From Dehalococcoidia bacterium (GTDB lineage: Bacteria; Chloroflexota; Dehalococcoidia; Lucifugimonadales; JAGWBF01): a stretch of DNA of 64,000 nucleotides. The position numbers and the translations under genes are program-made. The notes below the pieces were generated by a model. The model saw only the letters and a program-made list of their open reading frames with translations. It did no database searches and had not been told where the DNA came from. Shown piece after piece: positions 50,277 to 56,951 of this stretch; within the stretch, counting starts at the first letter, position 1; every line of letters begins with the position of its first letter. The stretch covers positions 2,790,491 through 2,854,490 of the forward strand of contig OZ240207.1 in assembly GCA_965197415.1 (NCBI GenBank), in the 5' to 3' direction.

Positions 50277-50450
50277 TTGGGGTCTACCTCTGAATAAAGC
50301 GATTTTCGGACTATCATTATATCCAGGCGTCAGGAGAGGGTCAACCTGGACGCCTAGCGTCGAAGCCACTCCTCATAACGTGATGATATAATCACCTGCC
50401 TTGCCTCGGCGCCGTTGCGTAGTCGGAAACCCTGTCTGAAAGGCCCCACA

Positions 50451-52553
50451 ATGAAGCAGGTTAGGACCAAACCCGCCTTAGCCTGGATTCTGACGCTGTC
50501 GGCGGCCCTGCTGGTGGCCACCGCCGCCTGTGGCGGCGACGCTCCTGCCGACCCCACAGCCACACCGCAACCTACTCCGACGGCCGCCAAGCTGACGCCA
50601 ACTCCGACAACCGCAACGCCGCCCACCTTGACCGCCACCGCCACCGCAGTGCCCCCTACATCGACACCCGAATCGCACCCCACCCCGCCCGACATTCCGA
50701 TTATTGACGCCGTGGCGTCTGGGAACATCGAGGCGGTCAAGGGGCATGTCGAGGCCGGGACGGACATCAACGGAGTGTTCCTGGAAACCCAGGGGCCCGG
50801 CTATGGGGCCTTTCCGTTGCACATGGCGGCCGTCACGCGCAACCAAACAATCGTCTTGCTGCTATTGGATAACGGGGCCGATATCGAACTCAGGGCCAAG
50901 GACAGCTCCGGGGGAACGCCGTTGCAGTGGGCCGCTTACGTAGGGGACAGCGATATGGTGGAGCTACTGGTCGAGGCCGGCGCCGATGTGAACACCCTGG
51001 ACAACAACGGGTACACCGCCATCGACAGCGTGGTCGTCTCTCCTGATGCGGACTTCGAGGCCAGGCGGCGAATCACCACGTTCCTACGAGCCAACGGAGG
51101 GAAAACCGGCGTAGGGACGTTAGTACACACGCCCCGAGCAGCCCCGCCGGGGTTGGAGATTACGGCCGAGTGGCCAGCGCCCAACTACGACAACTCCAGC
51201 TCCAGGGCCACCACCGAGTCCAGCATAAATTCGAGCAACGTCCATCAACTCACCGAAGCTTGGCGCTACCCGTTGCCCTTAAGCCCTGGCTCCGGCGCCG
51301 CGGCCACCACACCTATAGTGGTCGACGGAACGGTCTATTTGGGCGACCTGAACACCAACGTCCACGCTATAGACCTGGTCACCGGCGAGCGCAGGTGGCT
51401 GGCTCCTTCGGACGCACCTGTCTTCGGGCCCAGCGGGGTCGCCGTCGATGACGGAAAGGTGTTCGCCAACAAGGGCGGATGGGGTATAGCCGCCTACGAC
51501 GCAGAGACCGGAAAGGAACTCTGGGCCACTTCAATCTTAGTGAACGGGGGCGCCGTCAACATCCAGCCGACCGTGGTCGACGGCAAAGTGATGGCCGCCA
51601 CGTCATCCCTGTCACAGCCGGGCGCCAGGGGCACTCTTTACGCCCTGGACCAGCAAACGGGGGACATCCTGTGGTCCTTCAACACCATCGAATCGGATGA
51701 CGTTTGGGGCCGCCCCGACATCAACAGCGGAGGCGGCGCATGGTATCCGCCGTCTATCGACCTGGACCGGCGAGTGTCCTACTGGGGCATCTCCAACCCG
51801 TATCCTTTCCCAGGTGCCGCAGGCTTCCCCAACGGTTCCAGCCGGCCAGGAGACAACAAGTGGACAGACTCCATTCTCGCCATCGACCTCGACTCGGGCG
51901 AACTGCGGTGGGGCCACCAGGCGGTCCCCCACGACATATTCGACCGCGACGCCGTGATCACCGCCCTCGTTGAACTAGACGACGGACGCGAAGTCGTCAT
52001 CAGCACAGGAAAGATGGGCCGGGTCATAGGATTGGACGTCGGCGGAAACGTGTTGTGGGACATTCCCGTCGGCAGGCACAAGAACGACCACCTGACCTCG
52101 TTCGAGGGATCGATCGAGGTGCTGCCGGGAGCGGCTGGCGGAGTGGTGACTCCCATCGCCGCCGCGGACGGCGCTGTCTACCTCTCAGTAGTCAACGCCC
52201 CCATAACCTACTCCAGCCCCGAGGAGTCCAGTCCAGGCGCGGGCGCCCGTTTGGGTTCGTTCAACAGCCAACTGGTGGCAATCGACGCCGCCACCGGCGA
52301 GATTATATGGGACGTGCAGCTTCCGGGGGACTCTTTCGGAGGTGCGACTGTGGTCAACGACCTGGTGTTCACTTCCGTGTTGTCGGGCCGGATTCTCGCC
52401 TATAAGCGGGAGACCGGCGAACTGGTATGGAGCCACCAGGCTCCGGGTGGAATCAACGCCTGGCCGGCAATAGTCGGACCCATGCTGCTGATGCCCGTCG
52501 GCTTTGGGAACCCGCCTATGCTGCTGGCGTTGGAGCTTCCCGGAGGCGGCTAG
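50451..52553 (+). CDS. Lipoprotein with ankyrin repeats fused to a PQQ-binding beta-propeller
   Basis: ATAAC lipobox, PT linker, PLHMAA / GTPLQWAA..GADVN ankyrin repeats, repeated A.D..TG...W motifs. Confidence 0.85.
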   Translation: MKQVRTKPALAWILTLSAALLVATAACGGDAPADPTATPQPTPTAAKLTPTPTTATPPTLTATATAVPPTSTPESHPTPPDIPIIDAVASGNIEAVKGHVEAGTDINGVFLETQGPGYGAFPLHMAAVTRNQTIVLLLLDNGADIELRAKDSSGGTPLQWAAYVGDSDMVELLVEAGADVNTLDNNGYTAIDSVVVSPDADFEARRRITTFLRANGGKTGVGTLVHTPRAAPPGLEITAEWPAPNYDNSSSRATTESSINSSNVHQLTEAWRYPLPLSPGSGAAATTPIVVDGTVYLGDLNTNVHAIDLVTGERRWLAPSDAPVFGPSGVAVDDGKVFANKGGWGIAAYDAETGKELWATSILVNGGAVNIQPTVVDGKVMAATSSLSQPGARGTLYALDQQTGDILWSFNTIESDDVWGRPDINSGGGAWYPPSIDLDRRVSYWGISNPYPFPGAAGFPNGSSRPGDNKWTDSILAIDLDSGELRWGHQAVPHDIFDRDAVITALVELDDGREVVISTGKMGRVIGLDVGGNVLWDIPVGRHKNDHLTSFEGSIEVLPGAAGGVVTPIAAADGAVYLSVVNAPITYSSPEESSPGAGARLGSFNSQLVAIDAATGEIIWDVQLPGDSFGGATVVNDLVFTSVLSGRILAYKRETGELVWSHQAPGGINAWPAIVGPMLLMPVGFGNPPMLLALELPGGG

Positions 52554-52573
52554 ATCTGAGAGGGCTAGCCGCC

Positions 52574-53410
52574 CTATTCGAGCAGGACATTGTCTATGAG
52601 CCGGGCCTTCCCGATGCGAACGGCGGTGGAAACCATAGCCTGAGGCGCCGCCTCTGCCAGCTCCTCGAGGGTCACCGAGTCCGCCACGCTTACGTAGTCG
52701 ATGCTTGAAACCAGGGGTTCAGAGTCCAACACGGCTTTCATCTCCGCGCGGAGCGCGTCACACCTGGTCTCACCCTGCCGCCATAGGTCCACAGCTCTAG
52801 TGAGCGCGTTGTAAATCACCGGAGCGGCACGCCTCTCGTCAGGGGTCAGGTACACGTTCCGGCTGCTCATGGCCAGGCCGTCTTCTTCCCGCACCGTCGG
52901 CACATCCACGATTTCCACGTCCATGTCCAGGTCCTTCACCATGCGGCTGATCACCGCCAGCTGCTGGCCGTCCTTCCGGCCAAAGTAGGCGCGGTCGGGC
53001 CTCACGATATTGAACAGCTTGGCGACCACGGTGGCCACGCCCCGGAAGTGGCCGGGGCGGGACGCTCCTTCGAGGACTTCCGAGGTCTTTTCCACCTCAA
53101 TCCATGCGTCGAACCCTGGAGGGTACATCTCTTCGGGAGTTGGGGCAAAAACCAAGTCCACTCCTTCGTCCCTCAAGAGTGCCAGGTCTCTGTCCATGTC
53201 CCTGGGGTAAGAGGCCAGGTCCTCTCCTTGAGCGAACTGGGAGGGATTGACGAATATGGACACTACGGCAACGTCGTTCTCACTCCGGGCCTTGCGCACC
53301 AGAGTCAAGTGCCCTTCATGGAGGCTGCCCATGGTGGGTACGAGGCCCACCGACCCGGCGACTCTGCCTCTGGCCTCCCTGAAGCCTCTAACGGTGTCCA
53401 GAACATCCAT
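52574..53410 (-). CDS. panC: Pantoate--beta-alanine ligase
   Basis: VPTMGSLHEGH, SIFVNPSQF, RPGHFRGV, GLAMSSRN, RLIDN. Confidence 0.97.
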   Translation of the reverse strand: MDVLDTVRGFREARGRVAGSVGLVPTMGSLHEGHLTLVRKARSENDVAVVSIFVNPSQFAQGEDLASYPRDMDRDLALLRDEGVDLVFAPTPEEMYPPGFDAWIEVEKTSEVLEGASRPGHFRGVATVVAKLFNIVRPDRAYFGRKDGQQLAVISRMVKDLDMDVEIVDVPTVREEDGLAMSSRNVYLTPDERRAAPVIYNALTRAVDLWRQGETRCDALRAEMKAVLDSEPLVSSIDYVSVADSVTLEELAEAAPQAMVSTAVRIGKARLIDNVLLE

Positions 53411-53429
53411 AGCGAAACTTCCGGGCTTC

Positions 53430-54293
53430 CTACGGCTTGTACAAGGACTGGTCGACGATCTCCTCAACTTCCTTCATCACCCCGTCGTCCATGCCGAAAC
53501 TCTCCTTTTCGCCAGGGAACGTTCCTTCCTGGACATCCGAAGCGTAACGGCGCAGAGCGTCTGAAATGGTCGTCGCCAGCTTGGTGTATTGCCGGGCGTG
53601 CTTTGGAGCGAAGTCGGTGAAGAGTCCGAGCATATCGTGGAGCACCTGCACCTGCCCATCGCAATGGGGCCCTGCTCCGATTCCGATGGTCGGTATGGTC
53701 AGTCTGCGACTGATGGCGCCAGCCAGAGAAGTGGGCAGCAGCTCCAGCACGACGGCATAAGCGCCCGCGTCTTCCAGAGCTACGGCGTCCCTGATTAGCT
53801 GGGCCGCTTCTTCTATGTCCTTTCCCCTGACCCTATAGCCGCCAAAGCCATTCACCGATTGGGGAGTCAGCCCAATGTGGCCCATGACAGGTACGCCGCT
53901 CTCCACGATTCGGGAGACGGTCTCCGCGACTCTTACGCCCCCTTCGAGCTTCACCGAATGGGCGCCGCCTTCCTGCAACAGCCGACCAGCGTTCCGCATG
54001 GCCTCGCCCGCGTCTATCTGGTAGGTCATAAAGGGGAGGTCGGCGACCACCATGGACCTCTTGACGCCCCGAACGACGGCCTTGGTGTGGTGGATGATGT
54101 CCTCCATGGTAACGGGTATCGTGGACTCGTGGCCGAGCATCACCATGCCCAGGCTGTCGCCTACCAGAATCAACGGAATCTCGGCCTCGTCCGCCAGCTT
54201 TGCCGTGGGGTAATCGTAGGCTGTGACCATGGGGATTTTCTCGCCCCGAGCCTTGAGGTCGGCAATCTCTCTAACGGTGACCCTTCGATTCAT
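53430..54293 (-). CDS. panB: 3-methyl-2-oxobutanoate hydroxymethyltransferase
   Basis: TAYDY, LVGDSLGM, VKLEGG, GHIGLTPQ, IGIGAG. Confidence 0.98.
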   Translation of the reverse strand: MNRRVTVREIADLKARGEKIPMVTAYDYPTAKLADEAEIPLILVGDSLGMVMLGHESTIPVTMEDIIHHTKAVVRGVKRSMVVADLPFMTYQIDAGEAMRNAGRLLQEGGAHSVKLEGGVRVAETVSRIVESGVPVMGHIGLTPQSVNGFGGYRVRGKDIEEAAQLIRDAVALEDAGAYAVVLELLPTSLAGAISRRLTIPTIGIGAGPHCDGQVQVLHDMLGLFTDFAPKHARQYTKLATTISDALRRYASDVQEGTFPGEKESFGMDDGVMKEVEEIVDQSLYKP

Positions 54294-54309
54294 TCGTCGA
54301 GTCCTCTTA

Positions 54310-55212
54310 TCAGAATTTTGAGCGTCGTGTCGCGCAATCCCCCGACGCCGATTCCACTAACTCCTCGATTTCGTCTATCGACTCCTCGTCTACACCGTTG
54401 GCCAAGGCCATCTTGTAAGTCCCCCGCGCCATGTCCCGATACATGGGTATGAGGTGAGGCAGTCTCTGCCCCAGGGAGCTTATGTGGGACGCCACTGTGG
54501 CTTTATCCCCCCGCATCAAAGGCCCCGTGACGCTTGGGGCTACGCCTGAGCGCGAAATGTTGTCCAGGGTTGTCCTGGCAATGGGCAATATGGCGGAGAG
54601 GGCTTGGTCGTCCGAAAACCCCATCTCCCTCCAAACGTCCACGGCGGCTTGCACCAGGACTCCCAGGTATCCGCAGCTCATGACCGCCGACGCGTGGTAC
54701 ATCGGGCGGTCGTCGGCTTCCAGGGATATGGCCTTGCCCCCCAGGGACTGGGCCATCTGTGTGAGGGTTTCGAGGGCCGGACCGTCTCCGTCAACGGCAA
54801 AGGTCGCTCCCCGCACCCTCTCCGCTGCCTCGTCTGCGGACCTTATCCCCGCAAAGGTCTGGAAGGGATGGAAGGCTCCTCTGAGGCCCTCCGCCAGCTT
54901 GACGGGTTCCAGGGGTTCCAACGACAAAGCTCCGCTGCAATGCACGGCCAGCTGCCCTTTGCGCCACGGCGCCGTGGACGCAATCTCCCCGATGGAGTCG
55001 TCGGGCGCCGTAATGAACACTGTCTCGCAGCCCGCGGCCAGATCTTCAACCGATGCGGCCTCGCACCCCGGAATCAGCCTCGCCAGATTACGAGCCGATT
55101 CATGGGTGCGGCTGGAAACACAGACGACCCCGTATCCGGCGTTGTGCAGCGCCAGGGCAAGGCCTGTTCCCACCGCGCCGGCGCCAATGAATCCTATGGC
55201 TCCGTTATTCAA
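54310..55212 (-). CDS. Rossmann-like + DUF2520 oxidoreductase (PanG-type ketopantoate reductase candidate)
   Basis: GAGAVG, PDD, HCSGA, HPFQTF, YHASAV, TGPLMRGD; in pan operon. Confidence 0.85.
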   Translation of the reverse strand: MNNGAIGFIGAGAVGTGLALALHNAGYGVVCVSSRTHESARNLARLIPGCEAASVEDLAAGCETVFITAPDDSIGEIASTAPWRKGQLAVHCSGALSLEPLEPVKLAEGLRGAFHPFQTFAGIRSADEAAERVRGATFAVDGDGPALETLTQMAQSLGGKAISLEADDRPMYHASAVMSCGYLGVLVQAAVDVWREMGFSDDQALSAILPIARTTLDNISRSGVAPSVTGPLMRGDKATVASHISSLGQRLPHLIPMYRDMARGTYKMALANGVDEESIDEIEELVESASGDCATRRSKF

Positions 55213-56188
55213 GAGACTCTTTCCATTCGGAGGCCGAGGGCACGCCGCCCAAGCCCGTGGCCAGCGTCACGGCCCGCACTATAGACAAGCTCACCGCCTC
55301 CACGACGGCCGCTCCCAAGGCGGTCAGGTCAGCCTCCACCGGCGAGCTGCCTGTGGCGAGGGCAAACATGGAGTCTCCGTCCCGGATGGTGTGGCAAGGC
55401 CTTATGGCCATCGCAAGGCCGTCGTGGCTGACTCTTGCCAGATGGTGGACCTGCTCCTTGGTGAGTTTTGCGTCGGTGGCCACAACTCCAATGGTGGTGT
55501 TGACCCCGATGGGCGCCGCTGCACTGGAATTCTGAGAGAGCAAGACCTCTACGGAGTCCAGGAATTCTCCCGTCGATGCTTCGCGCGGCCCTGCCAGAAT
55601 GCACCCAGTCTTTGGGTCCGCCACTCCGCCGAAAGCATTGACGGCAACTATGGCGCCCGCGGTCAGACCATCGCCGGTGCGGACTGCGGCGGTGCCGATG
55701 CCCCCCTTGACGGCCCGTTCCATTCCCAGGGCTTTGCCCACCGTGGCGCCAGTGCCTGCCCCCACCGATCCCTCTTCCACTGCACGGTCAGTCGCCGACA
55801 GGCAGGCCCTGTATCCGTCGTCGGCCTCAGGCCTTGCCGTATGTGTCACGAGCCCCAGGTCGTAGAGGACTGCAGCCGACACTATGGGGACTTTCACGGC
55901 TCCAGCCTCAAATCCCACACCCTTCTCTTCCAAATACTTCACGACGCCTGCCGCGGCGTCTAGACCAAACGCGGAGCCTCCGCTGAGCAGGACCGCATGT
56001 ACTTTTTCCACCAGGTTTCCCGGCCTAAGCAGGTCCGTCTCTCTCGTTCCTGGAGCCCCGCCCCGCACGTCCACACCGGCTACGGCTCCGTCCATCGCCA
56101 GGATGACGGTGCACCCTGTCGCCCCGTCCAGATTGGTGCAGTGGCCGACTTGAATGCCTGGAGTTTCGACGATTCCTCGGACGGTCAT
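55205..56188 (-). CDS. P1/S58 (DmpA-like) family Ntn hydrolase
   Basis: TGCTV, VRGGAPGTRETD, LSGGSAFGL, GAGTGA, N-TTIGVVATD autoprocessing site, DGD..FALATG. Confidence 0.92.
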   Translation of the reverse strand: MTVRGIVETPGIQVGHCTNLDGATGCTVILAMDGAVAGVDVRGGAPGTRETDLLRPGNLVEKVHAVLLSGGSAFGLDAAAGVVKYLEEKGVGFEAGAVKVPIVSAAVLYDLGLVTHTARPEADDGYRACLSATDRAVEEGSVGAGTGATVGKALGMERAVKGGIGTAAVRTGDGLTAGAIVAVNAFGGVADPKTGCILAGPREASTGEFLDSVEVLLSQNSSAAAPIGVNTTIGVVATDAKLTKEQVHHLARVSHDGLAMAIRPCHTIRDGDSMFALATGSSPVEADLTALGAAVVEAVSLSIVRAVTLATGLGGVPSASEWKESLE

Positions 56189-56200
56189 GATGAAAACAAT

Positions 56201-56234
56201 AAAATGCCTTCCCCCCTGTTCAAGGGGAAAGGCA
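56201..56234 (-). terminator. Leader (attenuator) terminator upstream of the pan operon
   Basis: Minus-strand stem UGCCUUUCCCC/GGGGGAAGGCA followed by UUUUAUUGUUUU, about 12 nt before the start codon. Confidence 0.75.
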
Positions 56235-56332
56235 CAAAGGTCTTTCGGCTATTTCGACCGTCCGGGCCTTCTGGGGTTCCGGCGGCCACGATTGTCCCGC
56301 TTATGGCTCACCCCCTCACCGGGTGGATGGCA
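56235..56332 (-). ncRNA. Structured 5' leader, candidate pan-motif RNA
   Basis: Hairpin CCGCCGGAACC-CCAGAA-GGCCCGGACGG (56258-56285) with unpaired A's; lies between promoter and terminator upstream of panBC. Confidence 0.5.
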
Positions 56333-56337
56333 ACTAA

Positions 56338-56365
56338 ATCATACCATCCGGCTAGGGCGTGTCAA
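56338..56365 (-). promoter_or_regulatory. Sigma70-type promoter of pan operon
   Basis: TTGACA-16 bp-TATGAT with TG extension on the minus strand. Confidence 0.65.
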
Positions 56366-56645: not shown

Positions 56646-56951
56646 CTAGGCGGCCAGAGGAGCGAGCTCCCTTTCTTCAGCCGACTTGCGGATTATCCTG
56701 AAGATGGTCCTCTGGCTGATGGAGAACTGTGAGGCCACCTCGGAGATGGAGACGCCATCCCGCTTGACGGCTTCTATGATGTTCTGGTCCCGCTCTCGTC
56801 GCTTCTCGCGTTGAAGCCAGCCAGGGTCGTCGTATTTGCATTGGGGTAGAGGGCACCTGAGGCACGAAGGGTATATGTCGCATCCGTCGTCTCTGTAGGG
56901 GAACCTTTCGGGCAACATGTCTACTGAAGCAACCGCAGCCTGTCGAAGCAT
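56646..56951 (-). CDS. Small HTH protein with N-terminal four-Cys cluster
   Basis: DDGCDIYPSCLRCPLPQCKYDDP then GVSISEVASQFSISQRTIFRII HTH; GAGGTG RBS. Confidence 0.8.
   Translation of the reverse strand: MLRQAAVASVDMLPERFPYRDDGCDIYPSCLRCPLPQCKYDDPGWLQREKRRERDQNIIEAVKRDGVSISEVASQFSISQRTIFRIIRKSAEERELAPLAA

What the first reader, a model, noticed from the sequence alone, without database searches (positions are those of the whole stretch)
52574..56365. panD-less pantothenate operon headed by a DmpA/S58 hydrolase: candidate alternative beta-alanine supply
Seen: promoter, structured leader and terminator, then S58 hydrolase, Rossmann/DUF2520, panB, panC, tightly spaced (the first two overlap), with no panD. 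Established: PanB, a ketopantoate reductase (PanG is Rossmann/DUF2520) and PanC make pantothenate and need beta-alanine. The DmpA/S58 family includes beta-aminopeptidases that release N-terminal beta-Ala and the pantetheine hydrolase ThnT. Inference: this enzyme fills the PanD slot by liberating beta-alanine, or by recycling pantetheine, as a co-regulated salvage route.
Basis: partly seen in the sequence, partly recalled or inferred. Interest (0 to 1): 0.75.

Follow-up and report, generated by a model that had tools for sequence, protein, structure and literature searches.

The report
Vitamin B5 operon with ThnT-like hydrolase
A vitamin B5 (pantothenate) operon in a marine Chloroflexota genome starts with a self-processing amidase that is tied to vitamin B5 and coenzyme A genes in several phyla, and it looks more like a salvage enzyme for pantetheine-type compounds than a replacement for the beta-alanine enzyme PanD.

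Summary
On the minus strand lie a promoter, a structured leader, a terminator, an S58 hydrolase, a Rossmann/DUF2520 reductase, panB and panC. No panD is in the operon.

The main interpretation does not hold:
- An intact-looking panD lies about 0.5 Mb away.
- In relatives, panD sits inside the same operon behind the S58 gene.
- S58 orthologues occur in genomes without panC. In a Clostridia sample, 22 of 28 S58 carriers lack full-length panC, and 12 of 28 have a PanT-like pantothenate-transporter gene within 1 kb.

The protein belongs to the ThnT/NylC branch. A profile of 22 orthologues scores ThnT at 264 bits and BapA at 34.

The leader is a divergent tandem "pan motif" (Rfam RF01749) followed by an intrinsic terminator.

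Best reading, inferred and not assayed: a cytoplasmic ThnT-like amidase that turns pantetheine, or a related pantothenoyl amide, into pantothenate. This would serve bacteria whose only detected pantothenate kinase is CoaX, which does not phosphorylate pantetheine.

An earlier scan note (e1-3340661) read a ThnT-like gene elsewhere in a similar way. I did not test that note.

The parts
56338..56365 (-). Sigma-70-type promoter-like site, TTGACA, 16 nt, TATGAT with TG (extended -10)
   Evidence: 11 of 12 matches. The hexamers are conserved in the alignment of relatives' leaders.
56254..56334 (-). Tandem pan-motif RNA: two hairpins, each interrupted by bulged A residues (divergent RF01749)
   Evidence: RNAalifold on 14 leaders gives 21 pairs, 8 with compensatory changes. 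Model R1 scores 69.2 bits here and gives the only strong hit in the genome. The homologous leader in L022 scores 32.1 bits against Rfam pan, whose gathering score is 36.2. The window copy itself has no Rfam hit at E<=10.
56194..56235 (-). Intrinsic-terminator-like hairpin (14 pairs) plus T-run, 15 nt before the S58 start: the likely expression platform
   Evidence: A comparable hairpin (stem of 10 or more pairs, T-rich tail) is present in 22 of 27 pan-linked loci of relatives.
55205..56188 (-). S58 (P1 family) N-terminal-nucleophile amidohydrolase of the ThnT/NylC branch, 327 aa, with self-cleavage motif N230-T231-T232
   Evidence: PF03576 155 bits. It is the only S58 gene in the genome. PDB matches: 9cxr 1e-68, ThnT 3e-57. 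T231 is invariant in 22 orthologues.
54310..55212 (-). Rossmann-like/DUF2520 oxidoreductase (PanG-type candidate ketopantoate reductase). Its start overlaps the S58 stop by 8 nt.
   Evidence: PF10728 104 bits and PF10727 56 bits. Overlap seen. It lies downstream of S58 in most relatives.
53430..54293 (-). panB, ketopantoate hydroxymethyltransferase
   Evidence: PF02548 383 bits; TIGR00222 350 bits against a cut-off of 207.55.
52574..53410 (-). panC, pantoate--beta-alanine ligase. The ORF is open from 53467, but the ATG at 53410 fits the family model.
   Evidence: PF02569 361 bits; TIGR00018 350 bits, with the match starting at ORF residue 20.

Best explanation
This is a pantothenate operon controlled by a promoter, a tandem pan-motif leader and an intrinsic terminator, which suggests transcription attenuation.

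Its first gene encodes a cytoplasmic, self-processing S58 amidohydrolase of the ThnT/NylC branch. This enzyme is a conserved accessory of pantothenate/CoA metabolism, not a substitute for PanD.

The most likely reaction is hydrolysis of pantetheine, or a closely related pantothenoyl amide, to pantothenate plus the amine. The pantothenate would then enter CoA synthesis through the type III kinase CoaX, which cannot phosphorylate pantetheine itself. In Chloroflexota this salvage step is switched on together with de novo synthesis (reductase, PanB, PanC). In Clostridia the same family is paired with PanT-like importers.

Shown: gene order, conservation, regulatory RNA, family placement and co-occurrence patterns.
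Inferred: the substrate, the direction of flux, and what the leader senses.
For: 1. Linkage. DUF2520 and/or panB lie directly downstream of S58 in 27 of 30 loci from relatives; one of the other three is cut by a contig end. Pan genes are adjacent in 31 of the 80 most similar loci from 185,579 species genomes.

2. Same regulon. Model R1 finds the pan motif directly upstream of S58 in 16 of those 31 loci and in 0 of 49 loci without pan genes.

3. Not a PanD replacement.

4. Independent of PanC.
- 3 of 5 isolate genomes with an orthologue have neither panC nor panD.
- In 150 Clostridia, 22 of 28 S58 carriers lack full-length panC.
- Relative G035 (one contig, 95% complete) has no panB, panC or panD but keeps S58-DUF2520.
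- At least 12 Chloroflexota S58 carriers lack panB.

5. Neighbours outside Chloroflexota.
- A PanT-like ECF S-component lies within 1 kb in 12 of 28 Clostridia carriers, and within 6 kb in 15 of 28.
- For three such S-components the only significant PDB matches are 4rfs_S and 6zg3_C. These entries are ECF-PanT (passage in PMC11521937).
- Other neighbours are birA-S58-coaX, S58-acpS and a panE-type reductase next to S58.

6. Family placement. Profile scores are ThnT 264 bits, nylon hydrolase 9cxr 309, DmpA 38 and BapA 34.

7. Kinase logic. CoaX is present, and no type I PanK reaches its cut-off, in this genome and in 4 of the 5 isolates. Section 9 of PMC12570885 states that pantetheine phosphorylation occurs with PanK-I and is absent in bacteria with coaX.
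Against: - No enzyme assay exists for any member of this clade.
- The closest solved relative (9cxr) is known only as a nylon hydrolase, so similarity to ThnT does not fix the substrate.
- Neither this operon nor the relatives' loci carry a transporter gene.
- In the phylum sample, S58 carriers have panD less often than non-carriers (39 of 169 against 52 of 132). This is what a beta-alanine role would predict.
- About 35 of the 50 non-pan loci showed no CoA-related neighbour. Only 120 of 190 neighbouring ORFs were scanned, and no chance control for adjacency was run.
- Orthology across phyla rests on 50-60% identity and a quick, unrooted tree.
- Type II PanK was not searched.
- The retained S58-DUF2520 pair in G035, which lacks panBC, hints at a joint function that this model does not explain.
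Confidence: 0.5

Rival explanations
1. Beta-alanine supply. The enzyme releases beta-alanine from beta-alanyl amides or peptides and feeds PanC, backing up or replacing PanD.
For: - It is the first gene of a panBC operon that lacks panD.
- 8 of 13 relatives that have panC but no detected panD carry S58.
- At phylum level, S58 carriers have panD less often: 39 of 169 against 52 of 132.
- M20 amidohydrolases, one of the hydantoinase/carbamoylase type, follow S58 in 3 loci.
- Pfam family S58 includes beta-aminopeptidases (recalled; 1b65 and 3n2w appear only as weak matches).
Against: - panD is present in this genome.
- panD lies in the same operon behind S58 in 6 loci, and within 2.5 kb downstream of S58 in 8 sampled genomes.
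- 21 of 25 panD-positive relatives also carry S58.
- 22 of 28 clostridial carriers, and 3 of 5 isolates, have no panC to use beta-alanine.
- At least 53 Chloroflexota genomes have panB with neither panD nor S58, so another beta-alanine source exists regardless.
- DmpA and BapA score only 38 and 34 bits.
- No de novo beta-alanyl amide substrate is known (inference).
Confidence: 0.12
2. Metabolite repair or proofreading amidase of the B5/CoA pathway. It would hydrolyse wrong pantoyl amides made by PanC, imported antivitamins, or damaged pantetheine species, rather than pantetheine itself.
For: - It is co-expressed with PanC and linked to PanT-like importers.
- Its neighbours include a DUF89/ARMT1 damage-control phosphatase (L102) and NAD(P)HX repair genes (L058, L060, L092).
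- The nylon-hydrolase relatives suggest broad amidase capacity in this branch.
Against: - The repair-gene neighbours are few.
- acpS-nnr adjacency may be independent of S58.
- No evidence bears on such substrates.
- ThnT, the only relative with a named natural substrate, acts on pantetheine (review passage).
Confidence: 0.15
3. S58 and the DUF2520 reductase form a two-enzyme unit acting on an unidentified substrate. The unit is only loosely connected to PanB/PanC.
For: - The two genes overlap by 8 nt.
- The pair is kept in G035 (and in its near copy L045) without panB, panC or panD. There it is flanked by a PLP-dependent decarboxylase, Fic and SurE.
Against: - Several loci have S58 followed directly by panB or panC with no DUF2520 gene: L030, L037, L041, L049, L055, L064.
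- Outside Chloroflexota, S58 occurs without DUF2520.
- The G035 case is a single lineage and may be a remnant.
Confidence: 0.1
4. Generic peptidase carried along in the operon with no role in the pathway.
For: Database names are generic: 'P1 family peptidase' and 'L-aminopeptidase/D-esterase-like'. Many loci outside Chloroflexota show no informative neighbour.
Against: - It holds the first position behind the pan motif in two deep Chloroflexota lineages.
- Independent links to PanT-like genes, coaX, acpS and a panE-type gene occur in other phyla.
Confidence: 0.05

Closest known systems
ThnT, pantetheine hydrolase of thienamycin biosynthesis (PDB 3tm1, 3s3u, 4ihe)
   Same: Same S58 branch: E 3e-57 for the single protein and 264 bits for the profile of orthologues. 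The N-T-T self-cleavage motif aligns. ThnT's substrate, pantetheine, belongs to the pathway this gene is linked to.
   Different: ThnT is about 90 residues longer, with an N-terminal extension and insertions. It sits in an antibiotic gene cluster and serves to release cysteamine (review passage). Here the context is primary B5/CoA metabolism and the useful product would be pantothenate. Activity is untested.
NylC-type nylon-oligomer and nylon hydrolases (PDB 9cxr, 9z0a, 5xyp and others)
   Same: The closest solved sequence is 9cxr (1e-68; profile score 309 bits). Length is similar, about 305-355 aa, and the family is the same.
   Different: These entries are named for activity on synthetic polyamides. 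Their natural substrates are not given in the tool output, and I found nothing linking them to pan genes.
DmpA and BapA beta-aminopeptidases (PDB 1b65, 3n2w)
   Same: Same Pfam family (S58) and the same self-processing principle.
   Different: Only distant: 38 and 34 bits with the profile, and no match with the single protein at E<=0.001.
pan motif RNA (Rfam RF01749; Weinberg et al. 2010, PMC2864571)
   Same: Tandem hairpins each with two conserved bulged A residues, located upstream of panB/panC operons and reported from Chloroflexi (passage read; structure).
   Different: The window copy is too divergent for the Rfam model (no hit at E<=10). A relative's copy reaches 32.1 bits against a gathering score of 36.2. 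Here the motif is followed by a conserved terminator, and the first regulated gene is the S58 hydrolase. The passage I read does not mention that gene.
PanG, the ketopantoate reductase first described in Francisella (Miller et al. 2013; cited in PMC4207893)
   Same: A reductase gene inside a pantothenate operon. The Rossmann-like plus DUF2520 architecture is the one I recall for PanG.
   Different: The architecture of PanG is recalled, not checked by any search. Orthology to the Francisella protein and reductase activity were not tested. In G035 the gene persists without panB or panC.
Vanin pantetheinases of animals
   Same: The proposed reaction is the same: pantetheine to pantothenate plus cysteamine (passages).
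   Different: A different protein superfamily (recalled: nitrilase type), and extracellular host enzymes. No sequence relation was tested.

Membership tests
Peptidase family S58 / P1 (PF03576) | Match to the family model above the curated cut-off | tested here: met
   155.4 bits against a cut-off of 23.9, covering 3-301 of 307 model positions.
Peptidase family S58 / P1 (PF03576) | Conserved Ser/Thr nucleophile at an internal self-cleavage site | tested here: met
   N230-T231-T232 aligns with the N-T-T of ThnT. T231 is invariant, and N230 and T232 are at least 90% conserved, in 22 orthologues. That cleavage actually occurs cannot be tested here.
ThnT-type pantetheine hydrolase | Close sequence relationship to ThnT | tested here: met
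   E 2.8e-57; profile score 264 bits. The nylon hydrolase 9cxr is closer still.
ThnT-type pantetheine hydrolase | Hydrolysis of pantetheine | not testable with these tools
   Needs an enzyme assay.
ThnT-type pantetheine hydrolase | Context of a carbapenem cluster with CoA-trimming partners (ThnR, ThnH) | tested here: not met
   The neighbours are DUF2520, panB and panC. The ThnR/ThnH partnership is recalled.
DmpA/BapA beta-aminopeptidases | Close sequence relationship to DmpA or BapA | tested here: not met
   No hit with the single protein at E<=0.001. Profile scores are 38.4 and 33.7 bits.
pan motif (RF01749) | Score at or above Rfam's gathering threshold | tested here: not met
   Window: no match at E<=10. 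Best relative, L022: 32.1 bits against 36.2.
pan motif (RF01749) | Stem interrupted by two conserved bulged A residues, usually in tandem | tested here: met
   RNAalifold consensus of 14 leaders: two hairpins with invariant unpaired A residues; 8 of 21 pairs show compensatory changes. Description read.
pan motif (RF01749) | Location upstream of pantothenate biosynthesis operons | tested here: met
   The single strong hit in this genome lies before this operon. 16 further pan-linked loci have the motif.
PanG-type ketopantoate reductase | Rossmann-like plus DUF2520 domains, encoded in a pan operon | tested here: met
   PF10727 56 bits and PF10728 104 bits. Position conserved. That PanG has this architecture is recalled.
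PanG-type ketopantoate reductase | Ketopantoate reductase activity, or orthology to the characterised PanG | not tested
   No sequence of the characterised protein was compared. PDB relatives 2i76 and 3d1l are unnamed proteins.
PanB / PanC | Equivalog models above their cut-offs | tested here: met
   TIGR00222 350.1 bits against 207.55; TIGR00018 349.8 bits against 212.75.
PanD (pyruvoyl aspartate decarboxylase), elsewhere in the genome | Family model above its cut-off, open frame, Gly-Ser processing site | tested here: met
   136.5 bits against a cut-off of 25, with no stops. The ORF contains ...DYVGSILID.... That Gly-Ser is the processing site is recalled.

The most novel reading that the evidence does not exclude
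This S58 clade is the long-missing bacterial pantetheinase of primary metabolism. It would be a widespread cytoplasmic ThnT-like hydrolase that, together with PanT-like importers, lets bacteria relying on CoaX use pantetheine-type vitamers. In Chloroflexota it has become the lead gene of the pan-motif regulon.
Probability: 0.4. Interest if true: 0.75.

Novelty: new variant of a known kind. Interest (0 to 1): 0.6.

Why it matters
Two reviews frame the gap:
- A 2026 review states that microbial pantetheine hydrolases are known only from ThnT, in antibiotic biosynthesis (passage).
- A 2025 review says that pantetheine use by bacteria is scarcely explored and that the phosphorylation route is absent in bacteria with coaX (section 9).

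A conserved ThnT-like gene shows three links. In Chloroflexota it shares the regulatory RNA of panBC. In Clostridia that lack panC it sits beside PanT-like importers. In a Sumerlaeota genome it lies between birA and coaX. Together these give a concrete, testable candidate for the missing salvage step.

If confirmed, it would:
- change how B5 auxotrophy and vitamin exchange are predicted from genomes, both marine SAR202-type bacteria and gut Clostridia;
- bear on how bacteria handle pantothenate analogues;
- give a first defined gene set for working out what the orphan pan motif senses.

Separately, 210 of 301 sampled Chloroflexota lack a detectable panD while 262 have panB. The phylum's beta-alanine source therefore remains an open question, and this gene probably does not answer it.

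Tried and rejected
- **Rfam on the window leader.** No pan hit at E<=1 over 5.2 kb or at E<=10 over 271 nt. The identification rests on a relative's sub-threshold hit plus alignment.
- **MFE fold of the leader alone.** Not distinctive: z = -1.39.
- **Second pan motif in this genome.** Model R1 found none, for example before panD. The next best hit scores 19.3 bits, E 0.24.
- **PLP-dependent decarboxylase (PF00282) as an alternative beta-alanine source.** Found in only 7 of 41 relatives, with no clear relation to panD absence.
- **Sodium:solute symporters next to S58 (L061, L081).** Only weakly PanF-like, 92 and 83 bits against a cut-off of 328, so not counted as evidence.
- **NCBIfam on the S58 protein.** No model matches.
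- **Strict regular expression for the motif.** It missed divergent copies and was replaced by the covariance model.
- **Careful maximum-likelihood tree.** It did not finish in 300 s, so a quick tree was used.
- **Earlier scan notes.** By sequence, none. By words, none holding all the words.
- **Literature.** Searches for 'S58/pantothenate/beta-alanine/panD', 'DmpA + pantothenate', 'NylC + ThnT', 'ThnT + pantetheine' and 'pantetheine + PanT + energy-coupling factor' gave no paper linking an S58 enzyme to pantothenate operons or to PanT. The supplements of PMC2864571 held no 'aminopeptidase' or 'DmpA'; one file was cut when stored.
- **Not run.** Structure prediction and fold search were skipped because sequence matches to solved structures were already decisive. 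No complex prediction was run because no binding claim is made.

Full report
**What is there**

On the minus strand, four reading frames follow each other closely:
- an S58 hydrolase, 56188..55205, 327 aa, PF03576 155 bits;
- a Rossmann-like/DUF2520 oxidoreductase, 55212..54310, whose TTG start overlaps the S58 stop by 8 nt;
- panB, 54293..53430;
- panC, whose ORF opens at 53467 but whose family match and a plausible ribosome-binding site point to the ATG at 53410; it ends at 52574.

Upstream lie a promoter-like site (TTGACA, 16 nt, TGGTATGAT; 56365..56338) and a 14-pair hairpin with a T-run (56235..56204) that ends 15 nt before the S58 start.

**The genome is not panD-less**

PF02261 scores 136.5 bits at G000:C1:2346485-2346808, about 496 kb away. 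The frame is open and contains ...DYVGSILID.... That Gly-Ser is the processing site is recalled knowledge. The S58 gene is the only one of its family in the genome.

**The leader is a pan motif**

- Rfam gives no hit on the window's leader.
- The homologous leader of a relative (L022) matches RF01749 'pan' over the whole model at 32.1 bits, against a gathering score of 36.2.
- An alignment of 14 leaders from different genera folds into two hairpins, each interrupted by invariant unpaired A residues. Of the 21 pairs, 8 show compensatory changes.
- A covariance model built from these leaders (R1) scores 69.2 bits at window 56254..56334 and finds nothing comparable elsewhere in the genome.
- A terminator-like hairpin with a stem of 10 or more pairs and a T-rich tail lies between the motif and the start codon in 22 of 27 pan-linked loci of relatives.

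Transcription attenuation is the likely mechanism. What the motif senses is unknown.

**Is the linkage conserved?**

Yes. Among 41 relatives, 30 have an orthologue. In 27 of the 30 loci, DUF2520 and/or panB follow directly. One of the three exceptions is cut by a contig end.

A pattern scan of one genome per species returned the 80 most similar loci. Of these, 31 carry pan genes next to S58: 30 from Chloroflexota and one from Symbiobacterium. Model R1 finds the pan motif directly upstream of S58 in 16 of these 31 loci and in none of the 49 others.

In a quick, unrooted tree of 106 sequences, pan-linked genes fill one well-supported Dehalococcoidia clade (46 of 50 rows). They also branch at the base of the other side, next to sequences from other phyla (the careful search did not finish).

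**Does S58 stand in for PanD?**

The evidence says no.
- Six of the 80 loci read S58, DUF2520, panD, panB, panC. All six have the pan motif in front.
- In a sample of 301 Chloroflexota genomes at least 85% complete, all 10 same-class S58 carriers have panD, and in 8 of them it lies within 2.5 kb downstream of S58 on the same strand.
- Among the 41 relatives, S58 occurs in 21 of 25 genomes with panD and in 9 of 16 without.
- Of 13 relatives with panC but no detected panD, 8 have S58 and 5 do not.

One result goes the other way. Across the phylum sample, S58 carriers have panD less often (39 of 169) than non-carriers (52 of 132). This pattern follows families: for example f20 has panD in 9 of 9 genomes and S58 in 0 of 9, while f45 has panD in 0 of 18 and S58 in 16 of 18. 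These are not independent observations.

At least 53 genomes have panB with neither panD nor S58, a figure derived. The phylum must therefore have another beta-alanine source in any case.

The phylum tallies include four genomes flagged as unpublished (G226, G303, G207, G083). No conclusion depends on them.

**What kind of S58 enzyme is it?**

- With the single protein, the best solved relatives are a nylon hydrolase (9cxr, 1e-68), ThnT (3e-57) and NylC (about 1e-26). DmpA and BapA do not appear at E<=0.001.
- With a profile of 22 orthologues, the scores are 309 bits (9cxr), 264 (ThnT), 130 (NylC), 38 (DmpA) and 34 (BapA).
- The N-T-T self-cleavage motif aligns with ThnT's. T231 is invariant in the orthologues.

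The pantetheine hydrolase ThnT is a close relative.

**Context outside Chloroflexota**

I scanned 120 of 190 neighbouring ORFs from the 50 loci without adjacent pan genes. The 70 omitted were picked by eye, mostly outer or short ORFs. Recurrent neighbours were:
- ECF S-components directly upstream: L083, L096, L101, L103;
- EcfT: L090, L101, L111;
- birA, S58, coaX in a Sumerlaeota genome: L072;
- birA: L035, L046;
- acpS: L058;
- a panE-type reductase: L068, 280 bits to TIGR00745;
- M20 amidohydrolases: L072, L101, L111, the last followed by panB.

About 35 loci showed nothing informative. Examples are citrate synthase in four near-identical acidobacterial loci and AI-2E transporters in four Anaerolineales loci.

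For three of the S-components, the only significant PDB matches are 4rfs_S and 6zg3_C. These are ECF-PanT, the pantothenate transporter (passage in PMC11521937).

**A direct test in Clostridia**

The sample was 150 to 151 genomes at least 90% complete. G441 was not scored in two of the three searches.
- 28 of 150 genomes have an S58 orthologue at E<=1e-60.
- A PanT-like gene lies within 1 kb of S58 in 12 of the 28, and within 6 kb in 15.
- Only 6 of the 28 have a full-length panC. This equals the background rate of 31 of 150.
- 10 of the 12 PanT-adjacent cases lack panC.

Other cases point the same way:
- Three of five isolate genomes with an orthologue (Geosporobacter ferrireducens, Clostridium thailandense, C. 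rhizosphaerae) have neither panC nor panD.
- Relative G035 (one contig, 95% complete) has no panB, panC or panD but keeps S58-DUF2520.

An enzyme whose purpose was to feed beta-alanine to PanC would have no use in these genomes.

**Proposed mechanism (inferred)**

This genome and all five isolates have the type III pantothenate kinase CoaX. No type I kinase reaches its cut-off in this genome or in four of the five isolates. Type II was not searched.

According to section 9 of PMC12570885, pantetheine enters CoA synthesis by phosphorylation through PanK-I, and this step is absent in bacteria with coaX. A cytoplasmic ThnT-like hydrolase that converts pantetheine, or a related pantothenoyl amide, to pantothenate would open that route. 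This would explain both the pairing with PanT-like importers and the co-regulation with de novo synthesis. The N-terminus shows no obvious signal peptide, judged by eye.

The substrate is not shown. The nearest solved relative is known only for nylon hydrolysis, and this operon carries no transporter. I put this reading at about 0.5. The rivals are:
- a repair or proofreading amidase of the pathway, 0.15;
- beta-alanine release, 0.12;
- a joint function with the DUF2520 reductase, 0.10;
- a hitchhiking peptidase, 0.05.

**Novelty**

Database names for this clade are generic. Five literature searches found no paper linking an S58 enzyme to pantothenate operons or to PanT.
- A 2026 review states that microbial pantetheine hydrolases are known only from ThnT (passage).
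- A 2025 review of bacterial CoA metabolism contains no 'S58' and mentions pantetheinases only as host or serum enzymes in the passages shown.
It agrees in spirit, is not independent evidence, and was not tested here.

The pan motif and the PanG-type reductase are known kinds. The new element is the conserved membership of a ThnT-like hydrolase in B5/CoA gene neighbourhoods across phyla.

Noticed in passing
window 56646-56951 (-): A small (101 aa) Cys-rich HTH protein (HTH_23, weakly sigma-70 region 4-like) is encoded just upstream of the pan promoter on the same strand. A homologue occupies the same position in 14 related loci of the same taxonomic family (L004, L008, L014, L017-L020, L026-L029, L018, L036). 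It could be a candidate binder of the pan motif or a promoter regulator, or merely inherited gene order.
   Followed up: partly
L117 (G035:C1:538000-551000): A relative with no panB, panC or panD keeps S58-DUF2520. The local gene order is PLP-dependent decarboxylase, Fic, S58, DUF2520, SurE, NIPSNAP. The reductase therefore may not act only as a ketopantoate reductase. A SMODS/Cap17-like defence pair lies next door.
   Followed up: partly
phylum sample: Of 301 Chloroflexota genomes at least 85% complete, 262 have panB but only 91 have panD. At least 53 have panB with neither panD nor the S58 gene. The beta-alanine source of most of the phylum is unexplained.
   Followed up: partly
L072 7958-9172, L101 7010-8227, L111 6944-8191: An M20 amidohydrolase directly follows the S58 gene in three different phyla. 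One is of the hydantoinase/carbamoylase type and two are of the ArgE/DapE type. In Symbiobacterium the order is EcfA, EcfT, S58, M20, panB. This may be a second hydrolytic step of the same route.
   Followed up: partly
window 52540-52570: A 9-bp inverted repeat (GGCGGCTAG ... CTAGCCGCC), with no T-run, lies in the 20-nt gap between the convergent ends of panC and the upstream-strand gene. It may be a shared terminator.
   Followed up: no
window 50415-52553 (+): A 712-aa protein joins a Thr/Pro-rich N-terminal linker, ankyrin repeats and a PQQ-type beta-propeller. It is convergent with panC.
   Followed up: no
G010:C5:29712-29971 and G012:C1:2187544-2187859: Two relatives carry, besides an intact panD, a second panD-like stretch split into two pieces. 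These may be decaying duplicates.
   Followed up: no
relatives' leaders: The arms of the terminator stem keep a similar sequence (GCCTTC... / ...GAAGGC) across genera, not just pairing potential. This may point to an alternative pairing or a bound factor.
   Followed up: no
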